Of a stretch of DNA of 12,662 nucleotides, positions 4,365 to 12,662 are shown in pieces. The position numbers and the translations under genes are program-made. Location of the stretch: UHGV virus genome UHGV-0336296, one strand, 5' to 3'. The stretch is from a virus. Position 1 is the first letter of the stretch, and every line of letters begins with the position of its first letter. The notes under the pieces were generated by a model that worked only from the letters and a program-made list of their open reading frames with translations, did not search any database and was not told where the DNA came from.

Positions 4365-5150
4365 ATGCATCGTATAGACACGAAAACCGCGCAGAAGGAT
4401 AAGTTCGGCGCGGGTAAGAACGGTTTTACCCGTGGTAACCCCCAGACCGGCACGCCTGCCACCGATCTGGATGATGACTACTTTGACATGTTGCAGGAGG
4501 AGCTTTGCAGCGTTGTGGAGGCATCCGGTGCCAGCCTGGAGAAGGGGCGGCATGACCAGCTGCTTACCGCGCTTCGTGCGCTGCTGTTAAGCCGCAAGAA
4601 TCCGTTTGGCGATATCAAATCGGATGGCACGGTGAAAACAGCTCTCGAAAACCTTGGTTTGGGAGAAGGTTCGGCATTACCCGTTGGCGTGCCTGTTCCG
4701 TGGCCTTCCGCCACTCCGCCAACAGGCTGGCTGAAATGCAACGGGGCGGCTTTTTCTGCTGAAGAATACCCGGAACTGGCAAAGGTTTACCCGACAAATA
4801 AATTGCCTGATTTACGCGGTGAGTTTATTCGTGGCTGGGATGATGGAAGAGGGATTGATACTAACCGTAGCTTGCTTTCGTCACAGGGAGATACCATTCG
4901 GAATATAACAGGATTTATAAATGAAGTTAAAGGCACCATTGATACAGCAACTTTCAGGTTACAGACTGGTACTGGTGCTTTTGCCTTAGCATCTCAAGCT
5001 ACGCGAAATATCTATAATAACCTAGGCACATATGAAACAAAAAATACCCCTTACACAGGATTCAGTTTTGATGCATCCAGGGTTGTACCAACAGCATCAG
5101 AGAATCGCCCTCGAAACATTGCATTTAACTATATCGTGAGAGCAGCATAA
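4365..5150 (+). CDS. Side tail fibre protein: constant N-terminal part (to about 4653) fused to an invertible C-terminal receptor-binding cassette
   Basis: 261 aa. GGAG RBS upstream. Contains a tail-collar-like motif ([21 protein letters not shown]). The left crossover site lies inside the coding sequence at 4642-4667. GC drops sharply after about 4860. Confidence 0.75.
4642..4667. repeat. Left invertase crossover site (hix/gix/pix-like, 26 bp)
   Basis: ctctcgaaaacc-tt-ggtttgggagaa: AAACC-NN-GGTTT core with dyad symmetry, as in Hin/Gin/Cin/Pin recombination sites. Confidence 0.7.
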
Positions 5151-5752
5151 TGGATAAAGCAATATTAAATAGTGAGCTTATTGCTACAAAGTCGGGGGAT
5201 ATTACCGTTTATAACTATGATAGTGAGACGCAGGAATATATTTCAGCATCAACTGAATATCTTGCCATTGGTGTCGGTATTCCTGCATATTCCTGTTTAG
5301 ATGCCCCTGGCACACATAAGGCGGGTTATGCTATCTGTCGTTCTGCAAATTTTAACTCATGGGAATATGTGCCAGACCATCGCGGTGAAATCGTCTATAG
5401 CACCAAAACGGGAGAGTCAAAAGAAATCACAGCTCCGGGTGATTACCCTGATAATACAACCACTATCGCCCCGTTAACGCCATACGATAAATGGGATGGT
5501 GAGAAATGGGTGACGGATACCGAAGCACAGCATAGCGCCGCAGTAGATGCAGCAGAAGCACAGCGCCAGTCACTGATTGATACTGCAATGGCTTCAATCA
5601 GTCTGATTCAGCTGAAATTGCAGGCCGGACGTAAACTGACGCAGGCAGAAACAACCAGCCTTAACGCTGTGCTGGATTACATTGACGCGGTGACGGCAAC
5701 TGATACCAGCACCGCGCCTGATGTCATCTGGCCTGAACTGCCGGAGGCGTAG
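5150..5752 (+). CDS. Tail fibre assembly protein (Tfa)
   Basis: 200 aa. Start overlaps the fibre stop (TAATG). C-terminus LDYIDAVTATDTSTAPDVIWPELP is the conserved Tfa C-terminal signature, shared with the opposite-strand copy. Confidence 0.75.
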   Translation: MDKAILNSELIATKSGDITVYNYDSETQEYISASTEYLAIGVGIPAYSCLDAPGTHKAGYAICRSANFNSWEYVPDHRGEIVYSTKTGESKEITAPGDYPDNTTTIAPLTPYDKWDGEKWVTDTEAQHSAAVDAAEAQRQSLIDTAMASISLIQLKLQAGRKLTQAETTSLNAVLDYIDAVTATDTSTAPDVIWPELPEA

Positions 5753-6167
5753 GCCATTCAATATCTGGCGCACCGGAAGTATCGACCAGCTCCAGTGCGT
5801 CCAGATAATCCAGCCATAAATTATATTGTTCCAGCTCGTCACCTTTCAGACGACCAATAGCAGCTTTGCCAGGCCACTGATGGGTATTGATGTAGGTATT
5901 GACTTCTGAAACCAAAGATATTTTTTTCATTTCAGCCGCCAGCACCTCATCCTCTTTTGAAGGCGGCGGGGAATTAATCCATATTGGCCGTCCTGAACTG
6001 TCAGCGCCAATTTCTTTCCCTTCTGGATGCAGCCCAAGAAATTGCTCATATGTTTCTCTGGTAATTTCAATAACATCATCAGGAAGCGTTCCCGCATCCT
6101 CATATTCTGGAAACAATTCTTGCAGATAAAAACTTTTACTTCCGGGTGAAAAGAATACTGAGTTCAT
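5724..6167 (-). CDS. Alternative tail fibre assembly protein (Tfa'), silent cassette in this orientation
   Basis: 147 aa on the - strand, converging on tfa and overlapping it by 29 bp. C-terminus WLDYLDALELVDTSGAPDIEWPTPP matches the Tfa signature. Confidence 0.7.
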   Translation of the reverse strand: MNSVFFSPGSKSFYLQELFPEYEDAGTLPDDVIEITRETYEQFLGLHPEGKEIGADSSGRPIWINSPPPSKEDEVLAAEMKKISLVSEVNTYINTHQWPGKAAIGRLKGDELEQYNLWLDYLDALELVDTSGAPDIEWPTPPAVQAR

Positions 6168-6169
6168 TC

Positions 6170-6624
6170 TTACCGTCCAATGATTAACGCTGAGACGCTG
6201 GTATCTGAAGGAAAGGCTGCATTCAGTGGTTTGTCGACTTTGAACACAATCGTATTATTCCCCCTGACAGCGGCAAAAGAACAAACCGCCGTCGCGTATG
6301 AACCTGTAATATTACTGGATACACCACCATAAGCTGTTGTTGATACCAGAGGGATAACGCCCAGCACCTTATTAGGAAATACAAAGGGCAATGTGGCTGT
6401 GGCAATATAAGACTTATTAGAACCTGTAATGGCATAAGCATTATCAGTCATTCCATTCATCGCCACTGGACCGCTTATACTTACAGTAACCATCTGAATG
6501 ATTAGCCCGTCAGGTTGACGAATCACAAAATTTCCATTGCCACCAGTAACCGTCCAGAAAGACATATCAGGGATTTGGTTTTCCCCGTTGCCCACATTCC
6601 GTTTTGCCGCTTCTCCCAAACCAA
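6170..6624 (-). CDS. Alternative tail fibre C-terminal cassette (Stf'), no start of its own; expressed only after inversion fuses it to the constant N-terminus
   Basis: - strand frame is open from the right crossover site to a stop at 6170-6172, 2 nt upstream of the tfa' start. The sequence at the crossover encodes GLGE in both the expressed and the silent cassette. Confidence 0.65.
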
Positions 6625-6636
6625 CGTTTATGAAAA
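6611..6636. repeat. Right invertase crossover site (26 bp), inverted relative to the left site
   Basis: ttctcccaaacc-aa-cgtttatgaaaa. The inner half is the exact reverse complement of the inner half of the left site. Central AA is complementary to the left site's TT. Lies about 55 bp upstream of the invertase start. Confidence 0.7.
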
Positions 6637-6690
6637 TACAGAAATAACGAGCAAATGGCATCATTCCTGCTTTTGTCAGGGAGATCTACC

Positions 6691-7242
6691 ATGCTTATTG
6701 GCTATGTACGTGTGTCAACAAATGACCAGAACACAGATCTACAACGTAATGCGCTGAACTGTGCAGGATGTGAGCTGATTTTTGAAGACAAGATAAGCGG
6801 TACAAAGTCCGACAGACCAGGACTGAAAAAGCTGCTCAGGACATTATCGGCAGGTGACACGCTGGTGGTCTGGAAACTGGATCGACTCGGTCGCAGCATG
6901 CGGCATCTTGTCGTTTTGGTGGAGGAGCTTCGGGAAAAGGGTATTAACTTTCGCAGCCTGACCGACAGCATAGATACGTCTTCACCAATGGGACGCTTTT
7001 TCTTCCATGTCATGGGCGCACTTGCCGAAATGGAAAGGGAGCTGATAGTCGAACGTACCAGGGCGGGATTGGCTGCGGCTCGTGAAGAAGGGCGAATAGG
7101 TGGGCGTCGATCAAAGCTAACTGATGAACAGTGGGCGCAGGCAGGAAGGTTGGTTGCAGCAGGTGAATCACGACAGCGTGTGGCATTAATTTACGATGTT
7201 GGGATATCGACGCTATATAAAAAATTTCCGGCAACCAGGTAA
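6691..7242 (+). CDS. pin: Site-specific DNA invertase, serine recombinase of the Pin/Hin/Gin/Cin family
   Basis: 184 aa from the ATG at 6691. N-terminus MLIGYVRVSTNDQ carries the catalytic serine motif. C-terminal helix-turn-helix (GISTLYKKF). Adjacent to the invertible fibre segment. Confidence 0.9.
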   Translation: MLIGYVRVSTNDQNTDLQRNALNCAGCELIFEDKISGTKSDRPGLKKLLRTLSAGDTLVVWKLDRLGRSMRHLVVLVEELREKGINFRSLTDSIDTSSPMGRFFFHVMGALAEMERELIVERTRAGLAAAREEGRIGGRRSKLTDEQWAQAGRLVAAGESRQRVALIYDVGISTLYKKFPATR

Positions 7243-7310
7243 ATCATTGAGTTATGCGACGATGATGACTGATGGTGGCTAATGCCATTGATCTCCGTTT
7301 AAATAAAAAC

Positions 7311-7330
7311 TACTGTATATAATATCAGTA
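7311..7330 (+). promoter_or_regulatory. LexA operator (SOS box) overlapping the umuDC promoter -10 region
   Basis: TACTG-TATATAATAT-CAGTA is a perfect CTG-N10-CAG palindrome, 20 bp upstream of the umuD start. A TATAAT hexamer sits at 7318-7323 inside the box. Confidence 0.8.
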
Positions 7331-7349
7331 TTAATTGACGGTGATTATG

Positions 7350-7769
7350 ATGCAGTTTTTCACTCCCTCCGGGTTGCGTGCAGTGCAGCCGCTTCCACTC
7401 TATGGCGATCTTGTACCCTGTGGTTTCCCAAGCCCTGCTCAGGACTACGTTGAACAGCGTATCGATCTTAACGAGCTACTGATACAACACCCCAGCGCCA
7501 CGTACTTCGTTAAGGCATCTGGTGACTCGATGATTGATGCCGGGATCGGCGAAGGCGATTTACTGGTAGTGGACAGTTCACGCAAGGCAGAGCACGGCGA
7601 TATCGTTATTGCTGCGGTGGACGGGGAATTTACCGTTAAGCGCCTACAGTTATGGCCAACTGTCCAGCTTAACCCTGAAAACCGCGCCTGGTCGCCTATC
7701 ATCATCGGGAGCGAAGAAACGCTCGATGTTTTTGGTGTGGTGACGTTCATCGTGAAATCGACGGGTTGA
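7350..7769 (+). CDS. umuD: Translesion DNA polymerase V accessory subunit UmuD (LexA-like self-cleaving S24 peptidase)
   Basis: 139 aa from the ATG at 7350. Cys-Gly cleavage site (LVPCGFPSP), Ser nucleophile motif (ASGDSMID), and Lys in FTVKRL. Sits directly behind the SOS box. Confidence 0.85.
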
Positions 7770-7771
7770 TC

Positions 7772-9040
7772 ATGTACGCGTTGTGTGATGTGAACTCGTT
7801 CTATGCCTCCTGTGAAACTGTATTTCGCCCGGATCTCAAAGGTAGGCCGGTTGTGGTGCTTTCCAACAATGACGGTTGTGTTATTGCCCGCAGCACAGAG
7901 GCAAAGAAACTGGGTATCAAAATGGGTGAGCCGTACTTCAGGCAGAAGGACTTTTTCCGGCGCCATGGGGTGGTGTGCTTCAGCAGCAACTATGAGCTGT
8001 ATGCGGATATGTCTAACCGGGTGATGACCACGCTGGAAGAAATGTCGCCGCGCTGTGAAATTTACTCGATAGACGAGGCATTTTGTGACCTCACTGGTGT
8101 ACGTAACTGTCGTGATCTGACTGATTTTGGCCGTGAAATCCGTGCTACTGTTCTGCAGCGAACGCATCTGACAGTGGGTGTTGGCATTGCCCAGACCAAG
8201 ACGCTGGCCAAGCTGGCCAACCACGCGGCCAAACAATGGCAGCGGCAGACGGGCGGGGTGGTAGACCTGTCCAGTGTCGATCGCCAGCGCAAACTGATGG
8301 CCGCGCTGCCGGTTGATGAAGTCAGGGGCATCGGTCGGCGTATTTCGAAAAAACTGGAGGCGATGGGGATCAAGACCGTACTGCAACTCGCTGATACGGA
8401 CATCCGTTTTATCCGTAAACATTTTAATGTCGTGCTGGAGCGAACGGTGCGTGAGTTACGCGGAGAACCCTGCCTGGCACTGGAAGAATTCGCGCCAGTG
8501 AAACAGGAAATTATCTGTTCCCGCTCTTTTAGCGGTCGTATCACGGAGTATGAAGAGATGCGCCAGGCGATCTGCAGCTATGCCTCGCGGGCGGCAGAGA
8601 AACTGCGTGGCGAGCACCAGTATTGCCGTTTTATCTCGGCGTTTGTGAAGACCAGCCCGTTCGCACTGAACGAGCCCTATTATGGCAATAATGCCTCCGT
8701 GAAGCTTCTGACGCCTACGCAGGACAGTCGGGATATCATCAGTGCAGCCATCCGCTGTCTGGACGCCATATGGCAAGACGGATATCGGTATCAGAAAGCC
8801 GGGGTGATGTTGGGTGATTTCTTCAGTCAGGGCGTGGCCCAGCTCAACTTGTTCGATGATAACGCGCCGCGCCCGGGCAGTGAGAAACTGATGGAAGTGC
8901 TGGATCACCTCAATGCCAAAGGCGGGAGGGGGACGCTGTATTTTGCAGGACAGGGTATCCAGCAGCAGTGGCAGATGAAACGGGAAATGCTTTCTCCACG
9001 TTACACCACCCGATTCTCTGATCTACCCGTTGTCAGGTGA
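7772..9040 (+). CDS. umuC: Translesion DNA polymerase V catalytic subunit UmuC (Y-family polymerase)
   Basis: 422 aa from the ATG at 7772. N-terminus [13 protein letters not shown] and [11 protein letters not shown] are Y-family catalytic motifs. Starts 2 nt after the umuD stop. Confidence 0.9.
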
Positions 9041-9117
9041 TTTTCCGGTGACAGATTCTTCGGAAAACGGTGGATGAGTTTATTAGAAACGATAAATCAA
9101 ATGTTCTTATTTTTGAT

Positions 9118-9156
9118 TACTAAGTCTCAGTTATACAATTCGGCTGAGACTTAGTA
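9118..9156. repeat. 13 bp perfect inverted repeat (stem-loop, 13 nt spacer) between the convergent umuC and KAP NTPase genes
   Basis: tactaagtctcag (9118-9130) and ctgagacttagta (9144-9156) are exact reverse complements. Located at the GC-content break. No clear U-tract on either side. Confidence 0.55.
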
Positions 9157-9163
9157 TGCCAAT

Positions 9164-10912
9164 TTATAGGCAAGAAATTGCGTGTCTTACTGTATTGTTT
9201 AAATCATATATCGCGCCATATTTAAAACTTTCTTGCTTACCTATGAAATAAATGTCAAGTTTTTGATTGAGGTATATAAGGCGCTGCTTTTCATTTGTGG
9301 CAAACTGAGATATGTTACTAATTCTATAATTACTTCTTAAAAAAGCGTTGAATTGCTCTATATCTTTAATGCTCCATTCTTTTAAAATGCACTTGGTCAA
9401 AAATGGTGCGCCAAGTACTTCTAGCGTTTTATAGTTTCCCATGGGATCTAATTTGAGTAATAAGTTAACATCAAATAAAGCCCAACCATCAGTTTCAATA
9501 ATTTCCTTAATTGCCTTTAAGTTTTTTCTCTTTTCAATATTATTATGACGGCCTGATAATATTGAAAATATAAGTTTCCCATCATCAAAGCCACTAGTCC
9601 AACTACTGATTGGATTGTTGTTATGAAATTCAAAGTAAGTAATAATGTCCTCGTCACTAAATTCGAGTGATTTAGAACTCATGAACTGCAATGTTAGTAA
9701 TGATGATTTTGGAAGATATTTATGATAAGTCAAATATTCATAGTTCTGAACCGCCCTAAGCCATTGGTGCAAATCACATGGTATTGTTCTAGAAATTAAA
9801 CCAATAATCGTGGGGAAAAATTCTTTTTCATCTGTCTCCTGTAGTTCTGGTCGAGTTGAAACTGCAATATCAATTGTACTTAAAGGTGTTGGCACATAAA
9901 AAACATCGTCCAATATATCATAAAGAGAAACATGACCACTGTAGTAATTTTTAAGGTGAATATTAATTTTATAATTGTGTAATGTAGACAAAAGTCTCGG
10001 TTCATGTGGATTTTCATCGCTGCTGGAATTTTGGGGTGGGATATGCTGGATGCTGTCAATGATCAGTTCGTCCATGGATTTGTTATGGATAAATAACAAG
10101 ATAAAATATGACAAAATTGAGCTTAGTATGGTTTTAGAGGCGATTTTCCACTCTAGTTCAGGGTGGTTTTCTGCGTGTAAATATAATGGAAGTGCAGTAT
10201 TTAAACACCTCATTAAAATTCTTATGTTAACTATGTTATGGTATGATATTATTTCTTCGAAAATCATTTTGTCTTCAGTGGGGAAGTACTGTAGTTTTTC
10301 TTCAATTATTCTCATATCTAATATGTCGCGAGGGTTTGGGTTGTAATGAAGTGAATCAGAAATAATTTTTTCTTTATGTTCTAATGACAGGTGGGATTCG
10401 GCAGATGTATTAGATATAACAATAAAATCCAAACTAGAGATTTTTGAGGTTGAATATAACGAATGACAATAAGTTAGTATTTCATTGGCCAGTGAGGGAG
10501 TGCTTAATCGCTCAATGTCATCTAATATAAATATGCCACTGAGTTTGGAGAGTATGTTCTCTCTTACACTTGAACCAATGGAACTGAACACACCATTAAG
10601 CACATTGGCACTAGCGGGAGAACCACTGCTTACACTACCCAAACCAGAAATAGTATCTAACCCAGACTTAAGAGTGTCTATATCTTGAAGATAGTAGCAG
10701 TCAATAATCTTTGCTTTGAAATCTGCAAGAGACTTAACGCCTAGTAATGAAATATAATAAAACACATTAAGATCATAAAAACGAGGAAATACATTTTTAA
10801 TAAAAAAAGTTTTACCTGTTCCCCATTTTCCATCAATAAAAATAAGTCCATCTCTTTCGGATTGTAGAAGATGAACTATTTTTACAATCAAATTGCTATT
10901 AGAGTTTTCCAT
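9164..10912 (-). CDS. KAP-family P-loop NTPase (PifA-like); candidate abortive infection / anti-phage protein
   Basis: 582 aa. Walker A GKWGTGKT (the GxWGxGK[ST] form typical of KAP NTPases) near the N-terminus. Walker B-like IFILDDIERL (hhhhDD-DR). Very AT-rich single-gene insert between GC-rich neighbours. Confidence 0.7.
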   Translation of the reverse strand: MENSNSNLIVKIVHLLQSERDGLIFIDGKWGTGKTFFIKNVFPRFYDLNVFYYISLLGVKSLADFKAKIIDCYYLQDIDTLKSGLDTISGLGSVSSGSPASANVLNGVFSSIGSSVRENILSKLSGIFILDDIERLSTPSLANEILTYCHSLYSTSKISSLDFIVISNTSAESHLSLEHKEKIISDSLHYNPNPRDILDMRIIEEKLQYFPTEDKMIFEEIISYHNIVNIRILMRCLNTALPLYLHAENHPELEWKIASKTILSSILSYFILLFIHNKSMDELIIDSIQHIPPQNSSSDENPHEPRLLSTLHNYKINIHLKNYYSGHVSLYDILDDVFYVPTPLSTIDIAVSTRPELQETDEKEFFPTIIGLISRTIPCDLHQWLRAVQNYEYLTYHKYLPKSSLLTLQFMSSKSLEFSDEDIITYFEFHNNNPISSWTSGFDDGKLIFSILSGRHNNIEKRKNLKAIKEIIETDGWALFDVNLLLKLDPMGNYKTLEVLGAPFLTKCILKEWSIKDIEQFNAFLRSNYRISNISQFATNEKQRLIYLNQKLDIYFIGKQESFKYGAIYDLNNTVRHAISCL

Positions 10913-10989
10913 TATAATTGTTATCCTAATTTAAAGAGGTGTAAATAAAGCATGAAATAGTATAATGCTAATTTGAGGTAAAAACATTA

Positions 10990-11580
10990 TTATTCAATTG
11001 AAACAATAAGATATTCACCTTGATTTTTCGCATTACCCATCGCTCGCGTAACTGCATGCCAGATAAACTTGTCAGCTTGCACGGCACCGTAGTCGGTAAT
11101 CGCTTCTGCTTCCTTGCCTCGGCGTCTTGGCGCATCCCATTCCCGGGCTGCCTCCGGTGACAATACAAGTGGCTGTCGGTCGTGTATATCAACCAAGCCT
11201 TCATCGGCCGCAGACGTCACTATTAAAAAACCTTCGGCCTCGTCACTACGTTCGAAGGGGCGCTGCCGATTGCCGCCATGAATATTGGCTACCCATCAGT
11301 TCGGTGAATGAAGTAGGGTTGTTTTTTTGCTATCTTCGGTCTTGTCGAGTAGGGCACCGAAGTTACCTTCAACGCCCCCTCTAAGAACCGTGCGTGAGAG
11401 TTTCCAGCTCACACGGCTCAAGCCTTATCAAACACCACTGTGAAATGATGCGGCAGGTGCAGTCAGACGCGTGGTTCGGGATCGGATATAATCTGTCCAA
11501 TCCGTGTCATATGGATTAAGTGCAGATGCGACGAGTCTGTGACGGACAATTTTGACGCTCTGAGCGTGAACCAGCCTCAG
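10990..11580 (-). pseudogene. Decayed yedK-like SRAP (SOS response-associated peptidase, DUF159) gene
   Basis: C-terminal frame reads LVDIHDRQPLVLSPEAAREW...NAKNQGE, matching the SRAP C-terminal region. Upstream sequence continues the match (PIFMAAIGS, PFERSDEAEGFLIV) only across a 1-nt frameshift and an in-frame TAG. No intact ORF longer than 78 aa. N-terminal boundary is uncertain. Confidence 0.55.
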
Positions 11581-11631
11581 TATTGTAACTTTCCCCGTAT
11601 CAGTGTCCCGATAAAGACCTGACACCCCATT

Positions 11632-12465
11632 TTACTGCTGCCACCAAGCATATAGATCTAGACCTTTGGTAATTACACCTAAGAAAATCCCTAAAACTAT
11701 TAATCCAGTCACTAATGGGTGTTCTTTGAGCCTCATCGTTAACCAATATGGATGCCAGCTTCTTGGCCAAAACCATTTATTGTTAGTTTTGAGAGTACGA
11801 TCATGAATCCGCTCAGCAATATTACAGAGTATGTCGACCTTTCGTAATGTAGACATTTCTAGCTCTCTATACTTACCTTTGACATATGCCTCGGCTTCCT
11901 CAGCGCCGGCTAAGACATCTTTATCAGCGATACCATTTTTTTCAACAAGAGCTAACATTCTACCTGCACGGCCACTTTTGGCGGTATGCCCAATATAGCT
12001 TCGTCCATATATAGAAACGGCAGCTCTCGCTAAATCGAGTTTTCTGTCATCAGTAAGTATAAAGGGCTCGCCACCTAGGACTGAAAATCTATGCTGTAAG
12101 GCCTGAAATCCGTAATTGTTATCTCGCATGTTCCAATGCAGAAATGTGCATTGTGCGTATCTTTTCAGGAATGTAAAGTAGTTATCTAATAGATGATGCT
12201 CAAGGATATCGAGATTTTTTTCATCTGAAACATCAAGACCTAATAATTCTGCGGATCTATTAAGAGCCCAATGATCTGTTTGCCCACTGCCTAAATTTCT
12301 GACAGCAATAGAGGTGATCCTTGTGGATTTACCGCCCACAGCATCATAAAAAGATTCACATGAATAATGGACAACGTAGCATTGATGCGCATTTGCAAAA
12401 CATTTTTCGATAAAACCAATGTACTCGCTGCGATCTCTAATCTGTTGTTTGATGGAAGATGACAT
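11632..12465 (-). CDS. Hypothetical protein with a C-terminal transmembrane anchor; function unknown
   Basis: 277 aa. ATG at 12465 preceded by a GAGGT RBS. C-terminal hydrophobic helix LVTGLIVLGIFLGVITKGL. AT-rich compared with the phage and umuDC parts. No family recognised. Confidence 0.6.
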   Translation of the reverse strand: MSSSIKQQIRDRSEYIGFIEKCFANAHQCYVVHYSCESFYDAVGGKSTRITSIAVRNLGSGQTDHWALNRSAELLGLDVSDEKNLDILEHHLLDNYFTFLKRYAQCTFLHWNMRDNNYGFQALQHRFSVLGGEPFILTDDRKLDLARAAVSIYGRSYIGHTAKSGRAGRMLALVEKNGIADKDVLAGAEEAEAYVKGKYRELEMSTLRKVDILCNIAERIHDRTLKTNNKWFWPRSWHPYWLTMRLKEHPLVTGLIVLGIFLGVITKGLDLYAWWQQ

Positions 12466-12480
12466 CAGTGAACCTCATGC

Positions 12481-12510
12481 AAAAAAAAACCCGCAAAGTG
12501 CGGGCTTTTT
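12481..12510 (-). terminator. Rho-independent terminator (bidirectional hairpin, stronger on the - strand)
   Basis: 6 bp GC-rich stem cccgca/tgcggg with a 3 nt loop at 12490-12504. Followed by T9 on the - strand (12481-12489) and T5 on the + strand (12506-12510). Confidence 0.65.
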
Positions 12511-12637
12511 AAATCACTCAGGAGCCGCGGCTCCTTTGCGTATCCTTTTTTGTCTCCTCACCGTCTGGTCGGTGTCCTGCTGAGACTGCTAACTTCCTGT
12601 TTTTGTTGGTGTTGTCCTTACACCGTCCAATCATGAT

Positions 12638-12662
12638 TGGTGGAGCTGGCGGGAGTTGAACC
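12638..12662 (-). ncRNA. ssrA: 3' terminal fragment of tmRNA (ssrA) tRNA-like domain, or a duplicated att copy of it; gene body would lie beyond the window end
   Basis: - strand reads GGTTCAACTCCCGCC-AGCTCC-A-CCA: T-loop TTCAACT, T-stem CCCGC, acceptor 3' strand CAGCTCC, discriminator A, CCA. This matches the tmRNA 3' end as recalled. Only 25 nt are visible. Confidence 0.55.

What the first reader, a model, noticed from the sequence alone, without database searches (positions are those of the whole stretch)
10990..11580. Decayed yedK/SRAP-like gene next to umuDC, interrupted by the NTPase insert
The recognisable SRAP C-terminal region is intact in one frame, but the upstream part needs a 1-nt frameshift and contains an in-frame TAG where a glutamine codon is expected. 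SRAP proteins were named for their genomic association with SOS and mutagenesis genes, so a copy beside umuDC is biologically coherent. Its decay, together with the AT-rich insert between it and umuC, suggests the NTPase island landed in a former DNA-damage-tolerance locus.
Basis: partly seen in the sequence, partly recalled or inferred. Interest (0 to 1): 0.45.

Follow-up and report, generated by a model that had tools for sequence, protein, structure and literature searches.

The report
Dead SRAP gene with intron stump
The "decayed SRAP gene" is real but is only the back half of the gene, and the DNA in front of it is the stump of a mobile group II intron belonging to a lineage that repeatedly inserts at one spot in SRAP genes in several bacterial groups; the relic itself is non-functional prophage cargo.

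Summary
Partly confirmed. Window 10990-11343 (minus strand) is the 3' half (codons 107 to about 219) of a YedK/SRAP gene. It carries a TAG at the Gln124 codon, two uncompensated 1-nt frameshifts, one compensated pair, and four replaced C-terminal codons. RefSeq's PGAP pipeline already calls it a pseudogene.

Positions 11344 to about 11629 are not decayed SRAP. They are the 3' end of a group II intron: domains V-VI (Rfam RF00029, E=2e-8) plus the last 65 codons of the intron-encoded reverse transcriptase.

Full-length relatives sit at the same site, right after the Trp codon of the SRAP motif DG(F/W)(Y/F)EW, next to catalytic Glu105. I found them in Klebsiella and Pantoea plasmids, Halomonas, Acidobacteria and soil metagenomes. 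In four of these the joined exons restore an intact SRAP ORF.

The 5' exon and about 1.9 kb of intron were later deleted.

Intact comparators (E. coli D9, GE3) have umuD-umuC-SRAP with umuC and SRAP overlapping tail to tail, so the AT-rich NTPase is an insert at that junction. The insert is old: two diverged lineages share it, and both also carry decayed SRAP copies. The locus is variable prophage cargo beside ssrA, not a chromosomal repair locus.

The relic is ordinary. The SRAP-homing intron lineage is a modest, apparently unreported, novelty.

The parts
7311..7330 (+). LexA (SOS) box TACTGTATATAATATCAGTA upstream of umuD. Context for the module.
   Evidence: Read directly. The CTG-N10-CAG scan finds it here, and finds equivalent boxes upstream of umuD in D9 and GE3.
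7350..9040 (+). Intact umuD (7350-7769) and umuC (7772-9040, ORF from 7766), encoding the error-prone polymerase V subunits.
   Evidence: Pfam Peptidase_S24 at 3e-29; IMS, IMS_C and DUF4113 all complete. PGAP annotates both in identical E. coli records. UmuC is 85% identical at the amino-acid level to the D9 and GE3 modules.
9041..11004 (-). AT-rich (30-35% GC) insert between the 3' ends of umuC and SRAP. It carries a 582-aa P-loop NTPase gene (9164-10912).
   Evidence: Composition. Weak KAP_NTPase and AAA Pfam hits. PADLOC candidate defence family PDC-S49, E=7.8e-14; phrog_4740. Boundaries come from alignment to D9 and GE3. The same junction is present in L173 and L174.
10990..11343 (-). SRAP/YedK 3'-exon remnant: codons 107 to about 219, then four substituted codons and a TAA at 10990-10992. 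Lesions: A7 run +1 (11322-11328), TAG (11289-11291), 1-nt deletion (about 11257-11259), compensated +1/-1 pair (about 11136 and about 11119).
   Evidence: tblastn E=8e-42. Pfam SRAP 62.6 bits, profile positions 114-213 only. Codon-level map. DNA alignments. PGAP pseudogene.
11344..11421 (-). Group II intron domains V and VI. The 3' splice site lies between 11344 and 11343 (...CUACUCGAC|AAG).
   Evidence: Rfam RF00029 at 53.6 bits versus a gathering score of 40, E=2e-8, full model 1-77. Aligns to the same element in L004 and L005.
11422..11629 (-). Remnant of the intron-encoded reverse transcriptase/maturase. The last 65 codons (ORF 11428-11625) are still in frame to the native stop. The intron is cut off at about 11629.
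   Evidence: The translation ...VKIVRHRLVASALNPYDTDWTDYIRSRTTRLTAPAASFHSGV* matches the C-terminus of the 497-aa IEP of K. variicola pBM374-1. DNA identity is 84.4% to L004 and 95.4% to L005.
11632..12465 (-). 277-aa phage-family ORF of unknown function. Its stop codon abuts the truncated intron and marks the deletion/replacement boundary.
   Evidence: phrog_8766 at E=2e-54. No Pfam or PADLOC hit. No homology to the intron or to SRAP beyond 11630.
12481..12662 (.). Conserved prophage end, with a terminator (12490-12504) and the 3' end of ssrA (from 12638).
   Evidence: tmRNA is annotated in identical records. The 180-bp block is repeated at the other prophage end in strain SZQ1 and is present in related prophages. 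Terminator scan.

Best explanation
Window 10990 to about 11629 (minus strand) is a composite relic with no plausible present function. I reconstruct its history in four steps; their order is inferred.

1. A prophage- or plasmid-borne umuD-umuC-SRAP cassette existed, with SRAP convergent on umuC and overlapping it.
2. An AT-rich P-loop NTPase gene, a candidate phage-defence gene, was inserted exactly in the umuC/SRAP 3'-3' junction and replaced the last four SRAP codons. This happened long ago, because diverged lineages share the junction.
3. In the window's lineage, a group II intron retrohomed into the SRAP ORF immediately after the Trp106 codon of the motif DG(W/F)(F/Y)EW, one codon past catalytic Glu105. 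Target choice is explained by base pairing:
   - The intron loop 5'-CCAUUC-3' (EBS1) pairs with exon GA(A/G)UGG.
   - A second intron element (AACCA or AAGAA) pairs with the preceding Trp or Phe codon.
4. A deletion or replacement then removed the 5' exon (with catalytic Cys2, Asn75 and Glu105) and about 1.9 kb of the intron. What was left was domains V-VI, 65 IEP codons and the 3' exon, which then accumulated a nonsense codon and frameshifts.

Shown directly: the identity of each piece, the splice-site position, and the shared NTPase junction. Inferred: the order of events and the retrohoming mechanism, which rests on relatives and on established group II intron biology.
For: - **SRAP half-gene:**
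- **Intron remnant:** domains V-VI; IEP tail.
- **Exact insertion site in relatives:**
  - K. variicola plasmid L004 has SRAP residues 63-106, then a 2169-nt intron, then residues 107-141.
  - Pantoea stewartii L176 has an otherwise intact 222-aa SRAP ORF split at the same site.
  - pEn701_IMI-2 (L005) has an intron stump followed by an open SRAP 3' exon, residues 107-222.
  - Halomonas, five Acidobacteria genomes and eight metagenome contigs have SRAP halves flanking the intron.
  - Joined exons give intact MCGR... SRAP ORFs in L010, L012 and L014.
  - Loci whose IEP is 56% identical or less are not in SRAP.
- **EBS/IBS pairing:** 14 of 14 sequences pair at all six EBS1 positions. Two EBS2 pairs and three pairs of the EBS1 hairpin stem show changes on both sides. 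None of 500 shuffles reach the observed covariation score.
- **Mobility:** intron copies are 95% identical while their exons are only 59-72% identical.
- **NTPase as an insert:**
- **Shared old junction without an intron:**
- **Prophage cargo context:**
Against: - The window holds no intron domains I-IV and no 5' exon, so insertion by retrohoming into this particular allele is inferred from relatives, not seen here.
- The window's stump and the pEn701 stump end within about 10 nt of each other although their flanks are unrelated. A simple 'independent later deletion' model does not predict this.
- I read the EBS2 assignment off these same sequences, and it rests on about two independent compensatory events.
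- Only three NTPase-bearing modules and two fully inspected intact modules were compared.
- No splicing or mobility experiment exists for this intron.
Confidence: 0.85

Rival explanations
1. One reading: one continuous, lightly decayed full-length SRAP gene spanning 10990-11580, needing only one frameshift and one TAG repair.
For: The minus-strand translation near 11580 reads GWFTLRAS and near 11470 reads DPEPRV. These loosely recall the SRAP N-terminus MCGRF...DPEP. MAFFT also placed that stretch opposite the D9 start codon region.
Against: - No SRAP profile hit for 11328-11580 even at E<=1.
- tblastn gives only a 16-bit chance-level match there.
- The same bases are explained far better as group II intron: RF00029 at E=2e-8, and 84-95% DNA identity to intron copies whose IEP reading frame they preserve.
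- SRAP homology stops exactly at the 3' splice site.
Confidence: 0.02
2. The stump was made in one step by abortive retrohoming. Reverse transcription starts at the intron 3' end, stalled inside the IEP coding region, and the short cDNA was joined to upstream DNA. On this view there was never a full-length copy that was later deleted.
For: Two stumps (window and pEn701_IMI-2) are 95.4% identical, lie next to SRAP 3' exons that are only 59% identical, and end within about 10 nt of each other. cDNA synthesis from the intron 3' end is the established mechanism (PMC4424553).
Against: - Abortive insertion should leave the SRAP 5' exon upstream of the stump. Neither locus has it.
- The upstream flanks are unrelated genes.
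- n=2, so coincidence or a shared ancestral stump plus exon exchange cannot be excluded.
Confidence: 0.12
3. The stop and frameshifts are sequencing or assembly artefacts, or recoding signals, and a functional SRAP-derived protein is still made.
For: One frameshift lies in a homopolymer (A7, 11322-11328), which is a typical error site.
Against: - Three independent complete assemblies agree at 99.8-100% identity.
- Codons 1-106, including the Cys2 nucleophile, are physically absent whatever the base calls.
- There are at least five separate lesions.
Confidence: 0.01
4. The SRAP remnant did not belong with this umuDC. On this view it arrived together with the NTPase as part of a foreign fragment, so nothing 'landed in' a umuDC-SRAP module.
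For: SRAP' and the NTPase are co-oriented with only a 77-nt gap, and they travel together in L173 and L174. The NTPase is much more diverged (57% amino-acid identity) than UmuC (84%) between lineages.
Against: - In all three lineages the NTPase is flanked by both SRAP and the 3' end of umuC.
- umuC and the SRAP remnant are about equally diverged from the NTPase-free D9/GE3 modules, at roughly 72-78% nucleotide identity.
- GC content switches sharply at both junctions.
Confidence: 0.1

Closest known systems
E. coli YedK / SRAP (HMCES) family, PF02586; solved structures 6KBS, 6NUA, 2ICU
   Same: The remnant's residues 113-219 are 79-87% identical to a YedK-like SRAP. That SRAP itself matches YedK chains at E of about 1e-137. 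The DIHDR segment containing His160 is retained. The gene sits next to umuDC, the genomic association for which the family was named (my own knowledge of the family's naming, not retrieved here).
   Different: Only the C-terminal half is present. The Cys2 nucleophile, Asn75 and Glu105 are absent. There is a stop codon, there are frameshifts, and the last four codons are replaced. It is a pseudogene fragment, not a family member that can function.
Mobile-element umuD-umuC-SRAP cassettes (E. coli D9 islet near yciB; GE3 prophage at tRNA-Pro)
   Same: Same gene order and orientation. A LexA box precedes umuD. UmuC is 85% identical at the amino-acid level. In GE3 the cassette is the terminal cargo of a related prophage downstream of pinE.
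   Different: In those cassettes SRAP is intact and overlaps umuC by 8 bp. Here a 1.96-kb NTPase segment separates them, and SRAP is truncated by an intron and a deletion.
Bacterial group II introns with gene-specific homing sites (for example Ll.LtrB in ltrB, RmInt1 in ISRm2011-2, E.c.I introns in IS elements); Rfam RF00029 and RF02012
   Same: - Domains V-VI match the covariance model.
- Relatives have D1-D4 (RF02012), 5' GUGCG, an IEP with RVT_N, RVT_1 and GIIM domains, and EBS1/IBS1 pairing.
- Truncated copies in mobile DNA are the norm for bacterial introns (PMC4424553, PMC3522654).
   Different: - The homing site lies inside a conserved DNA-repair protein gene (SRAP), at the codons of its active-site motif, and is kept across Acidobacteria and Gammaproteobacteria.
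- Most bacterial introns avoid conserved genes (PMC4424553).
- I found no paper linking group II introns with SRAP, YedK, DUF159 or COG2135.
- The window copy lacks domains I-IV and most of the IEP.
KAP-family / PDC-S49 P-loop NTPases in prophage defence hotspots
   Same: It is a single AT-rich gene in the variable cargo slot downstream of the pin invertase. Related prophages carry a KAP NTPase, a restriction-modification system or a HipA-like kinase in the same slot.
   Different: Only the first ~40 residues match KAP_NTPase. The PDC-S49 match covers only the N-terminal half of the protein (residues 24-314). Defence activity is untested.

Membership tests
SRAP / YedK (PF02586) | Profile match above the curated cut-off over the whole domain | tested here: not met
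   62.6 bits against a cut-off of 27.1, but only profile positions 114-213 of 214 are matched. The intact comparator GE3 matches positions 1-214.
SRAP / YedK (PF02586) | N-terminal Cys2 nucleophile (MCGR...) plus active-site Asn75 and Glu105 | tested here: not met
   Codons 1-106 are absent. Homology starts at codon 107. Residue roles come from established knowledge of the YedK structures; the numbering was checked against 6KCQ/6KBS.
SRAP / YedK (PF02586) | Uninterrupted reading frame | tested here: not met
   TAG at 11289-11291, +1 at 11322-11328 and -1 at about 11257. The same lesions are present in three assemblies.
Group II intron | Catalytic domain V and branch-site domain VI matching the covariance model | tested here: met
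   RF00029 at 53.6 bits (gathering score 40), E=2e-8, model positions 1-77, window 11421-11344 minus strand.
Group II intron | Domains I-IV with a 5' GUGYG end and exon-binding sites | tested here: not met
   Absent from the window, where homology to full-length copies ends at about 11629. Present in relatives: RF02012 at 69-105 bits and 5' GUGCGAC. The window element is therefore a fragment of an intron, not a complete one.
Group II intron | Intron-encoded reverse transcriptase/maturase in domain IV | tested here: inconclusive
   Only the last 65 codons remain, and they give no Pfam hit on their own. They align to the C-terminus of a 497-aa IEP that has RVT_N, RVT_1 and GIIM domains.
Group II intron | Target recognition by EBS-IBS base pairing at the insertion site | tested here: met
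   Tested in 14 relatives. EBS1 CCAUUC pairs with exon GA(A/G)UGG in 100% of cells. The EBS2 core has two compensatory pairs. None of 500 shuffles reach the observed covariation score. It cannot be tested in the window itself because the EBS region is deleted.
umuDC-SRAP cassette | SRAP convergent on umuC with overlapping 3' ends; LexA box before umuD | tested here: not met
   The LexA box is present. However, umuC and SRAP are separated by the 1.96-kb NTPase insert, whereas D9 and GE3 show an 8-bp overlap.
PADLOC PDC-S49 candidate defence NTPase | Profile match to the family models | tested here: inconclusive
   E=7.8e-14, covering residues 24-314 of 582. No experimental defence data. No match in the phage collection.

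The most novel reading that the evidence does not exclude
The stump belongs to a previously undescribed clade of group II introns, with both endonuclease-plus and endonuclease-minus members. Its conserved homing site is the active-site-motif coding sequence (DG[F/W][Y/F]EW|) of SRAP/YedK genes. The clade spans Acidobacteria, Halomonas and Enterobacterales. It has recently been mobile among enterobacterial plasmids and prophages: introns are 95% identical where exons are 59-72% identical. In some hosts it makes production of the abasic-site-shielding protein depend on intron splicing.
Probability: 0.5. Interest if true: 0.5.

Novelty: new member of a known kind. Interest (0 to 1): 0.35.

Why it matters
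For the window itself, very little: it is a dead relic in prophage cargo, and RefSeq already flags the SRAP part as a pseudogene.

Two things are worth recording.

1. About 290 bp that look like "more decayed gene" are an unannotated group II intron stump. This shows that pseudogene 5' ends next to mobile DNA should be checked with RNA models before they are read as decay.
2. Following the stump revealed an intron lineage that sits at one fixed position inside SRAP genes in distant phyla, often with an otherwise intact host ORF. Bacterial group II introns mostly avoid conserved genes (PMC4424553). A lineage that lives in a DNA-damage-response gene, often beside umuDC on mobile elements, therefore gives a tractable natural system. 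It could be used to study homing-site conservation, horizontal spread, and whether splicing limits SRAP expression.

The recurrent decay of SRAP wherever the NTPase is wedged in is a small, testable hint about selection on the cassette.

Tried and rejected
- **N-terminal resemblance.** I first thought GWFTLRAS/DPEP in 11470-11580 might be a decayed SRAP N-terminus. I rejected this because there is no profile hit and the bases belong to the IEP reading frame.
- **A false tblastn hit.** A hit of SRAP residues 107-222 apparently 'inside ltrA' of L004 was an artefact of a multi-record FASTA file. The hit actually belonged to L005.
- **tRNA/tmRNA scan.** ARAGORN finds no gene in the window because only 25 nt of ssrA are included.
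- **LexA box.** Strict patterns found none. A CTG-N10-CAG scan found the box before umuD and none before the intact SRAP genes.
- **Close relatives of the intron.** Representative genomes reach only 65% IEP identity. No full-length copy exists in 5,426 complete E. coli genomes.
- **Progenitor searches.** No close relative of this umuDC occurs in plasmids; the best is 75%. The NTPase has no match in phage records and only one plasmid match.
- **The 277-aa ORF.** It has no homologue next to the pEn701 stump or in L173 and L174.
- **Truncated SRAP proteins in the protein database.** I suspected these were 3' exons. The two contexts I checked were not intron-associated (and, with blastn of the window against those loci).
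- **Literature.** Searches for group II intron plus SRAP, YedK, DUF159 or COG2135 returned nothing. This is absence in the searchable library, not proof of novelty.
- **Promoter scan.** It gave no more sites than shuffled controls.

Full report
**Where the window comes from**

The window matches three complete E. coli chromosomes at 98-100% identity: SZQ1, CP55_Sichuan and Res13-Sevr-PER07-33.

- It is the right end of a tailed prophage with a Mu/e14-like baseplate, invertible tail-fibre genes and a pin-type invertase at 6655-7242. The prophage lies next to ssrA, whose 3' end starts at 12638.
- Window 12481-12660 is a conserved prophage end. It is repeated at the other prophage boundary in SZQ1 and is present in related prophages.
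- Everything between the invertase and that end (7243-12480) is variable cargo. Related prophages carry other genes in this slot:
  - a KAP NTPase (L007);
  - a GIY-YIG protein plus a restriction-modification pair (L168);
  - DUF3037, a HipA-like kinase, DinI, umuDC and an intact SRAP (GE3, L006).

**Checking the observation**

I used an intact SRAP from E. coli D9 as the reference. It is 223 aa and matches YedK structures at E of about 1e-137.

- It matches the window's minus strand over residues 135-219 (11259-11005, 79% identity) and, in another frame, over residues 113-135 (11324-11256, 87%). Joint E=8e-42.
- Pfam SRAP scores 62.6 bits but covers only profile positions 114-213 of 214.
- The codon-level lesion map is:
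  - TAG at 11289-11291 in place of the conserved Gln124 codon;
  - a 1-nt deletion at about 11257-11259;
  - an extra A in the A7 run at 11322-11328;
  - a compensated +1/-1 pair at about 11136 and about 11119, turning MRQD(I/A)G into DAPRRR;
  - the last four codons changed, from ...LIEPVT* in D9 to ...LIVSIE*.
- PGAP already annotates window 10990-11327 as 'SOS response-associated peptidase family protein; frameshifted; internal stop; missing N-terminus'. Three assemblies agree, so sequencing error is excluded.

**What lies upstream is not SRAP**

- No SRAP signal exists beyond 11343.
- A plasmid search matched 11263-11629 to a region annotated ltrA.
- Rfam placed a complete group II intron domain V-VI match at 11421-11344 on the same strand as the SRAP remnant: RF00029, 53.6 bits, gathering score 40, E=2e-8.
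- The ORF at 11428-11625 reads ...VKIVRHRLVASALNPYDTDWTDYIRSRTTRLTAPAASFHSGV*. This is the C-terminal tail of the 497-aa intron-encoded protein (IEP) of Klebsiella variicola pBM374-1. That IEP has RVT_N, RVT_1 and GIIM domains and no HNH endonuclease domain.
- The intron therefore ends at 11344 (...CUACUCGAC), and the SRAP 3' exon starts at 11343 with codon 107.
- Homology to full-length copies stops at about 11629, two bases from the stop codon of a 277-aa phage-family ORF (phrog_8766).
- Intron domains I-IV, most of the IEP and the whole SRAP 5' exon are gone.

**The same intron in the same place elsewhere**

Enterobacterales:
- In pBM374-1 (L004) a 2169-nt intron sits between SRAP residues 63-106 and 107-141. 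It starts 5' GUGCGAC and matches RF02012 and RF00029.
- Pantoea stewartii pCN102 (L176) has a copy 95.2% identical to L004's. It splits an otherwise intact 222-aa SRAP ORF, and its IEP is broken.
- pEn701_IMI-2 (L005) has a stump like the window's, followed by an open SRAP 3' exon covering residues 107-222.

Other phyla:
- I scanned one genome per species and the JGI metagenomes with the IEP.
- The closest relatives (57-65% IEP identity) are from Halomonas, five Acidobacteria genomes and soil contigs.
- Fourteen of these loci have SRAP halves directly flanking the intron on the same strand. Only two of the remaining about 140 more distant loci contain any SRAP, and neither copy is interrupted by the intron.
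- The 5' junction is always after the Trp codon of (P/F)(A/S/V)(D/S)G(F/W/Y)(Y/F)EW.
- Joining the exons gives intact MCGR... SRAP ORFs in L010, L012 and L014 and in L176.
- One sub-lineage (L014, L097, L099) has an H-N-H endonuclease motif at the IEP C-terminus. The enterobacterial sub-lineage lacks it.

**How the site is chosen**

- In an alignment of 14 copies, an invariant CCAUUC sits in the loop of a hairpin whose stem covaries (GCGGAUG/CAUCCGC, ACGGGUG/CACCCGU, ACGGAAG/CUUCCGU). It can pair with the last six exon bases, GA(A/G)UGG, in all 14 copies.
- About 55 nt upstream, AACCA occurs in hosts with a Trp codon (UGGU) and AAGAA in hosts with a Phe codon (UUCU or UUUU). This pairs with exon positions -12 to -9 and shows two compensatory changes.
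- None of 500 shuffles reach the observed covariation score. Slid controls drop to 39-60% of cells paired, against 94.8%.
- This matches the textbook EBS1/EBS2-IBS1/IBS2 arrangement. Two caveats apply: I derived the structure from these same sequences, and the compensatory changes represent few independent events.

**Evidence of mobility**

- The window and pEn701 stumps are 95.4% identical, but their 3' exons are 59% identical.
- The Klebsiella and Pantoea introns are 95.2% identical, but their 5' exons are 72% identical.
- The break in identity falls exactly at the splice junctions. This is expected for retrohoming into diverged alleles.

**The NTPase**

- D9 and GE3 show the uninterrupted cassette: LexA box, umuD, umuC and an intact SRAP overlapping umuC by 8 bp.
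- Against them, the window's homology ends at the umuC stop (9040) and resumes at about 11005.
- The 1.96 kb between these points is 30-35% GC. It encodes a 582-aa P-loop NTPase that matches PADLOC candidate PDC-S49 at E=7.8e-14.
- A Logan contig (L173) and an Enterobacter cancerogenus plasmid (L174) have the same order SRAP-NTPase-umuC. They share the same altered SRAP C-terminus...NQGAHLVSSV*, from DNA ...CTTGTTTC....
- In those lineages the NTPase is 57-58% identical at the amino-acid level, and L174's UmuC is 84% identical (L173 keeps only the last ~40 UmuC codons). The insertion is therefore old.
- Neither L173 nor L174 has the intron, so homing came later in the window's lineage.
- Both have SRAP pseudogenes with different lesions: a 1-nt deletion in the A-run in L173, and a frameshift plus deletion in L174. 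So SRAP is dead in all three NTPase-bearing modules and intact in the two NTPase-free modules I inspected. About 50 further E. coli records annotate a related SRAP, mostly with no pseudogene qualifier in the product name; I did not check their flags or neighbours. The sample is small, and I have no mechanism for this pattern.

**Unexplained**

The window and pEn701 stumps end within about 10 nt of each other although their upstream flanks are unrelated. This could reflect abortive reverse transcription, a shared ancestral stump followed by exon exchange, or coincidence. I could not decide between these.

**Comparison with what is known**

- Truncated group II introns inside mobile DNA are the usual state in bacteria, and most bacterial introns avoid conserved genes (PMC4424553).
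- A survey of Enterobacteriales introns lists homing sites in IS elements and intergenic regions, and its text does not mention SOS or umu genes (PMC3522654).
- I found no paper that pairs group II introns with SRAP, YedK, DUF159 or COG2135. The searchable library is incomplete, so this does not prove novelty.

**Verdict**

- The coordinates and the account of how the gene was broken need correcting.
- The relic is ordinary. The SRAP-homing intron lineage it exposes is a modest new member of a known kind.

Noticed in passing
window 7311-7330: A good LexA box (TACTGTATATAATATCAGTA) lies 20 nt upstream of the umuD ATG. Equivalent boxes precede umuD in D9 and GE3, and none precedes the intact SRAP genes there.
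   Followed up: yes
window 11632-12465 (-): A 277-aa ORF with a hydrophobic C-terminus matches phrog_8766 (unknown function, E=2e-54) and has no Pfam or PADLOC hit. Its stop codon abuts the truncated intron.
   Followed up: partly
window 9164-10912 (-): A 582-aa AT-rich P-loop NTPase matches PADLOC candidate defence family PDC-S49 and phrog_4740. Homologues with 57-58% amino-acid identity occupy the same umuC/SRAP junction in L173 and L174.
   Followed up: partly
L002 12494-13719 (corresponds to window ~11387-11392): In E. coli Res13-Sevr-PER07-33 an IS3-family element has inserted into the domain V remnant of the intron stump. This is a further layer of decay.
   Followed up: partly
window 12481-12662; L001 6310-6484: A ~180-bp block holds a terminator and the 3' end of ssrA. 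It is repeated at the far prophage boundary in SZQ1 (92% identity) and is present at the ends of related prophages located at other chromosomal sites.
   Followed up: partly
window 4365-7242: An invertible tail-fibre segment: two sets of tail-fibre and tail-fibre-assembly genes in opposite orientation next to a pin/Gin-type serine invertase (Resolvase plus HTH_7). The crossover sites were not mapped.
   Followed up: no
L175 2022-6213 (Hymenobacter sp. HDW8 plasmid); also Haliscomenobacter hydrossis plasmid NC_015511.1, which was not inspected: In L175, a group II intron with about 65% nucleotide similarity to the SRAP intron sits between umuD and the Y-family polymerase gene. A related intron is therefore inside a umuDC operon in Bacteroidota. 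In NC_015511.1 the match overlaps ltrA and a Y-family polymerase annotation.
   Followed up: partly
L013, L090-L096 (5' splice sites): Many soil-metagenome copies of the SRAP intron begin UUGCG or UCGCG instead of the canonical GUGCG. L013 also has a broken 3' exon. These copies may be splicing-impaired.
   Followed up: no
L174 8062-8473: umuD in the E. cancerogenus plasmid module is frameshifted (two tblastn segments), so that whole cassette is decaying, not only SRAP.
   Followed up: no
L005 8562-11438: Three consecutive tyrosine recombinase genes (a recombinase-in-trio-like element) lie upstream of the intron stump in pEn701_IMI-2. They might have caused the truncation there.
   Followed up: no
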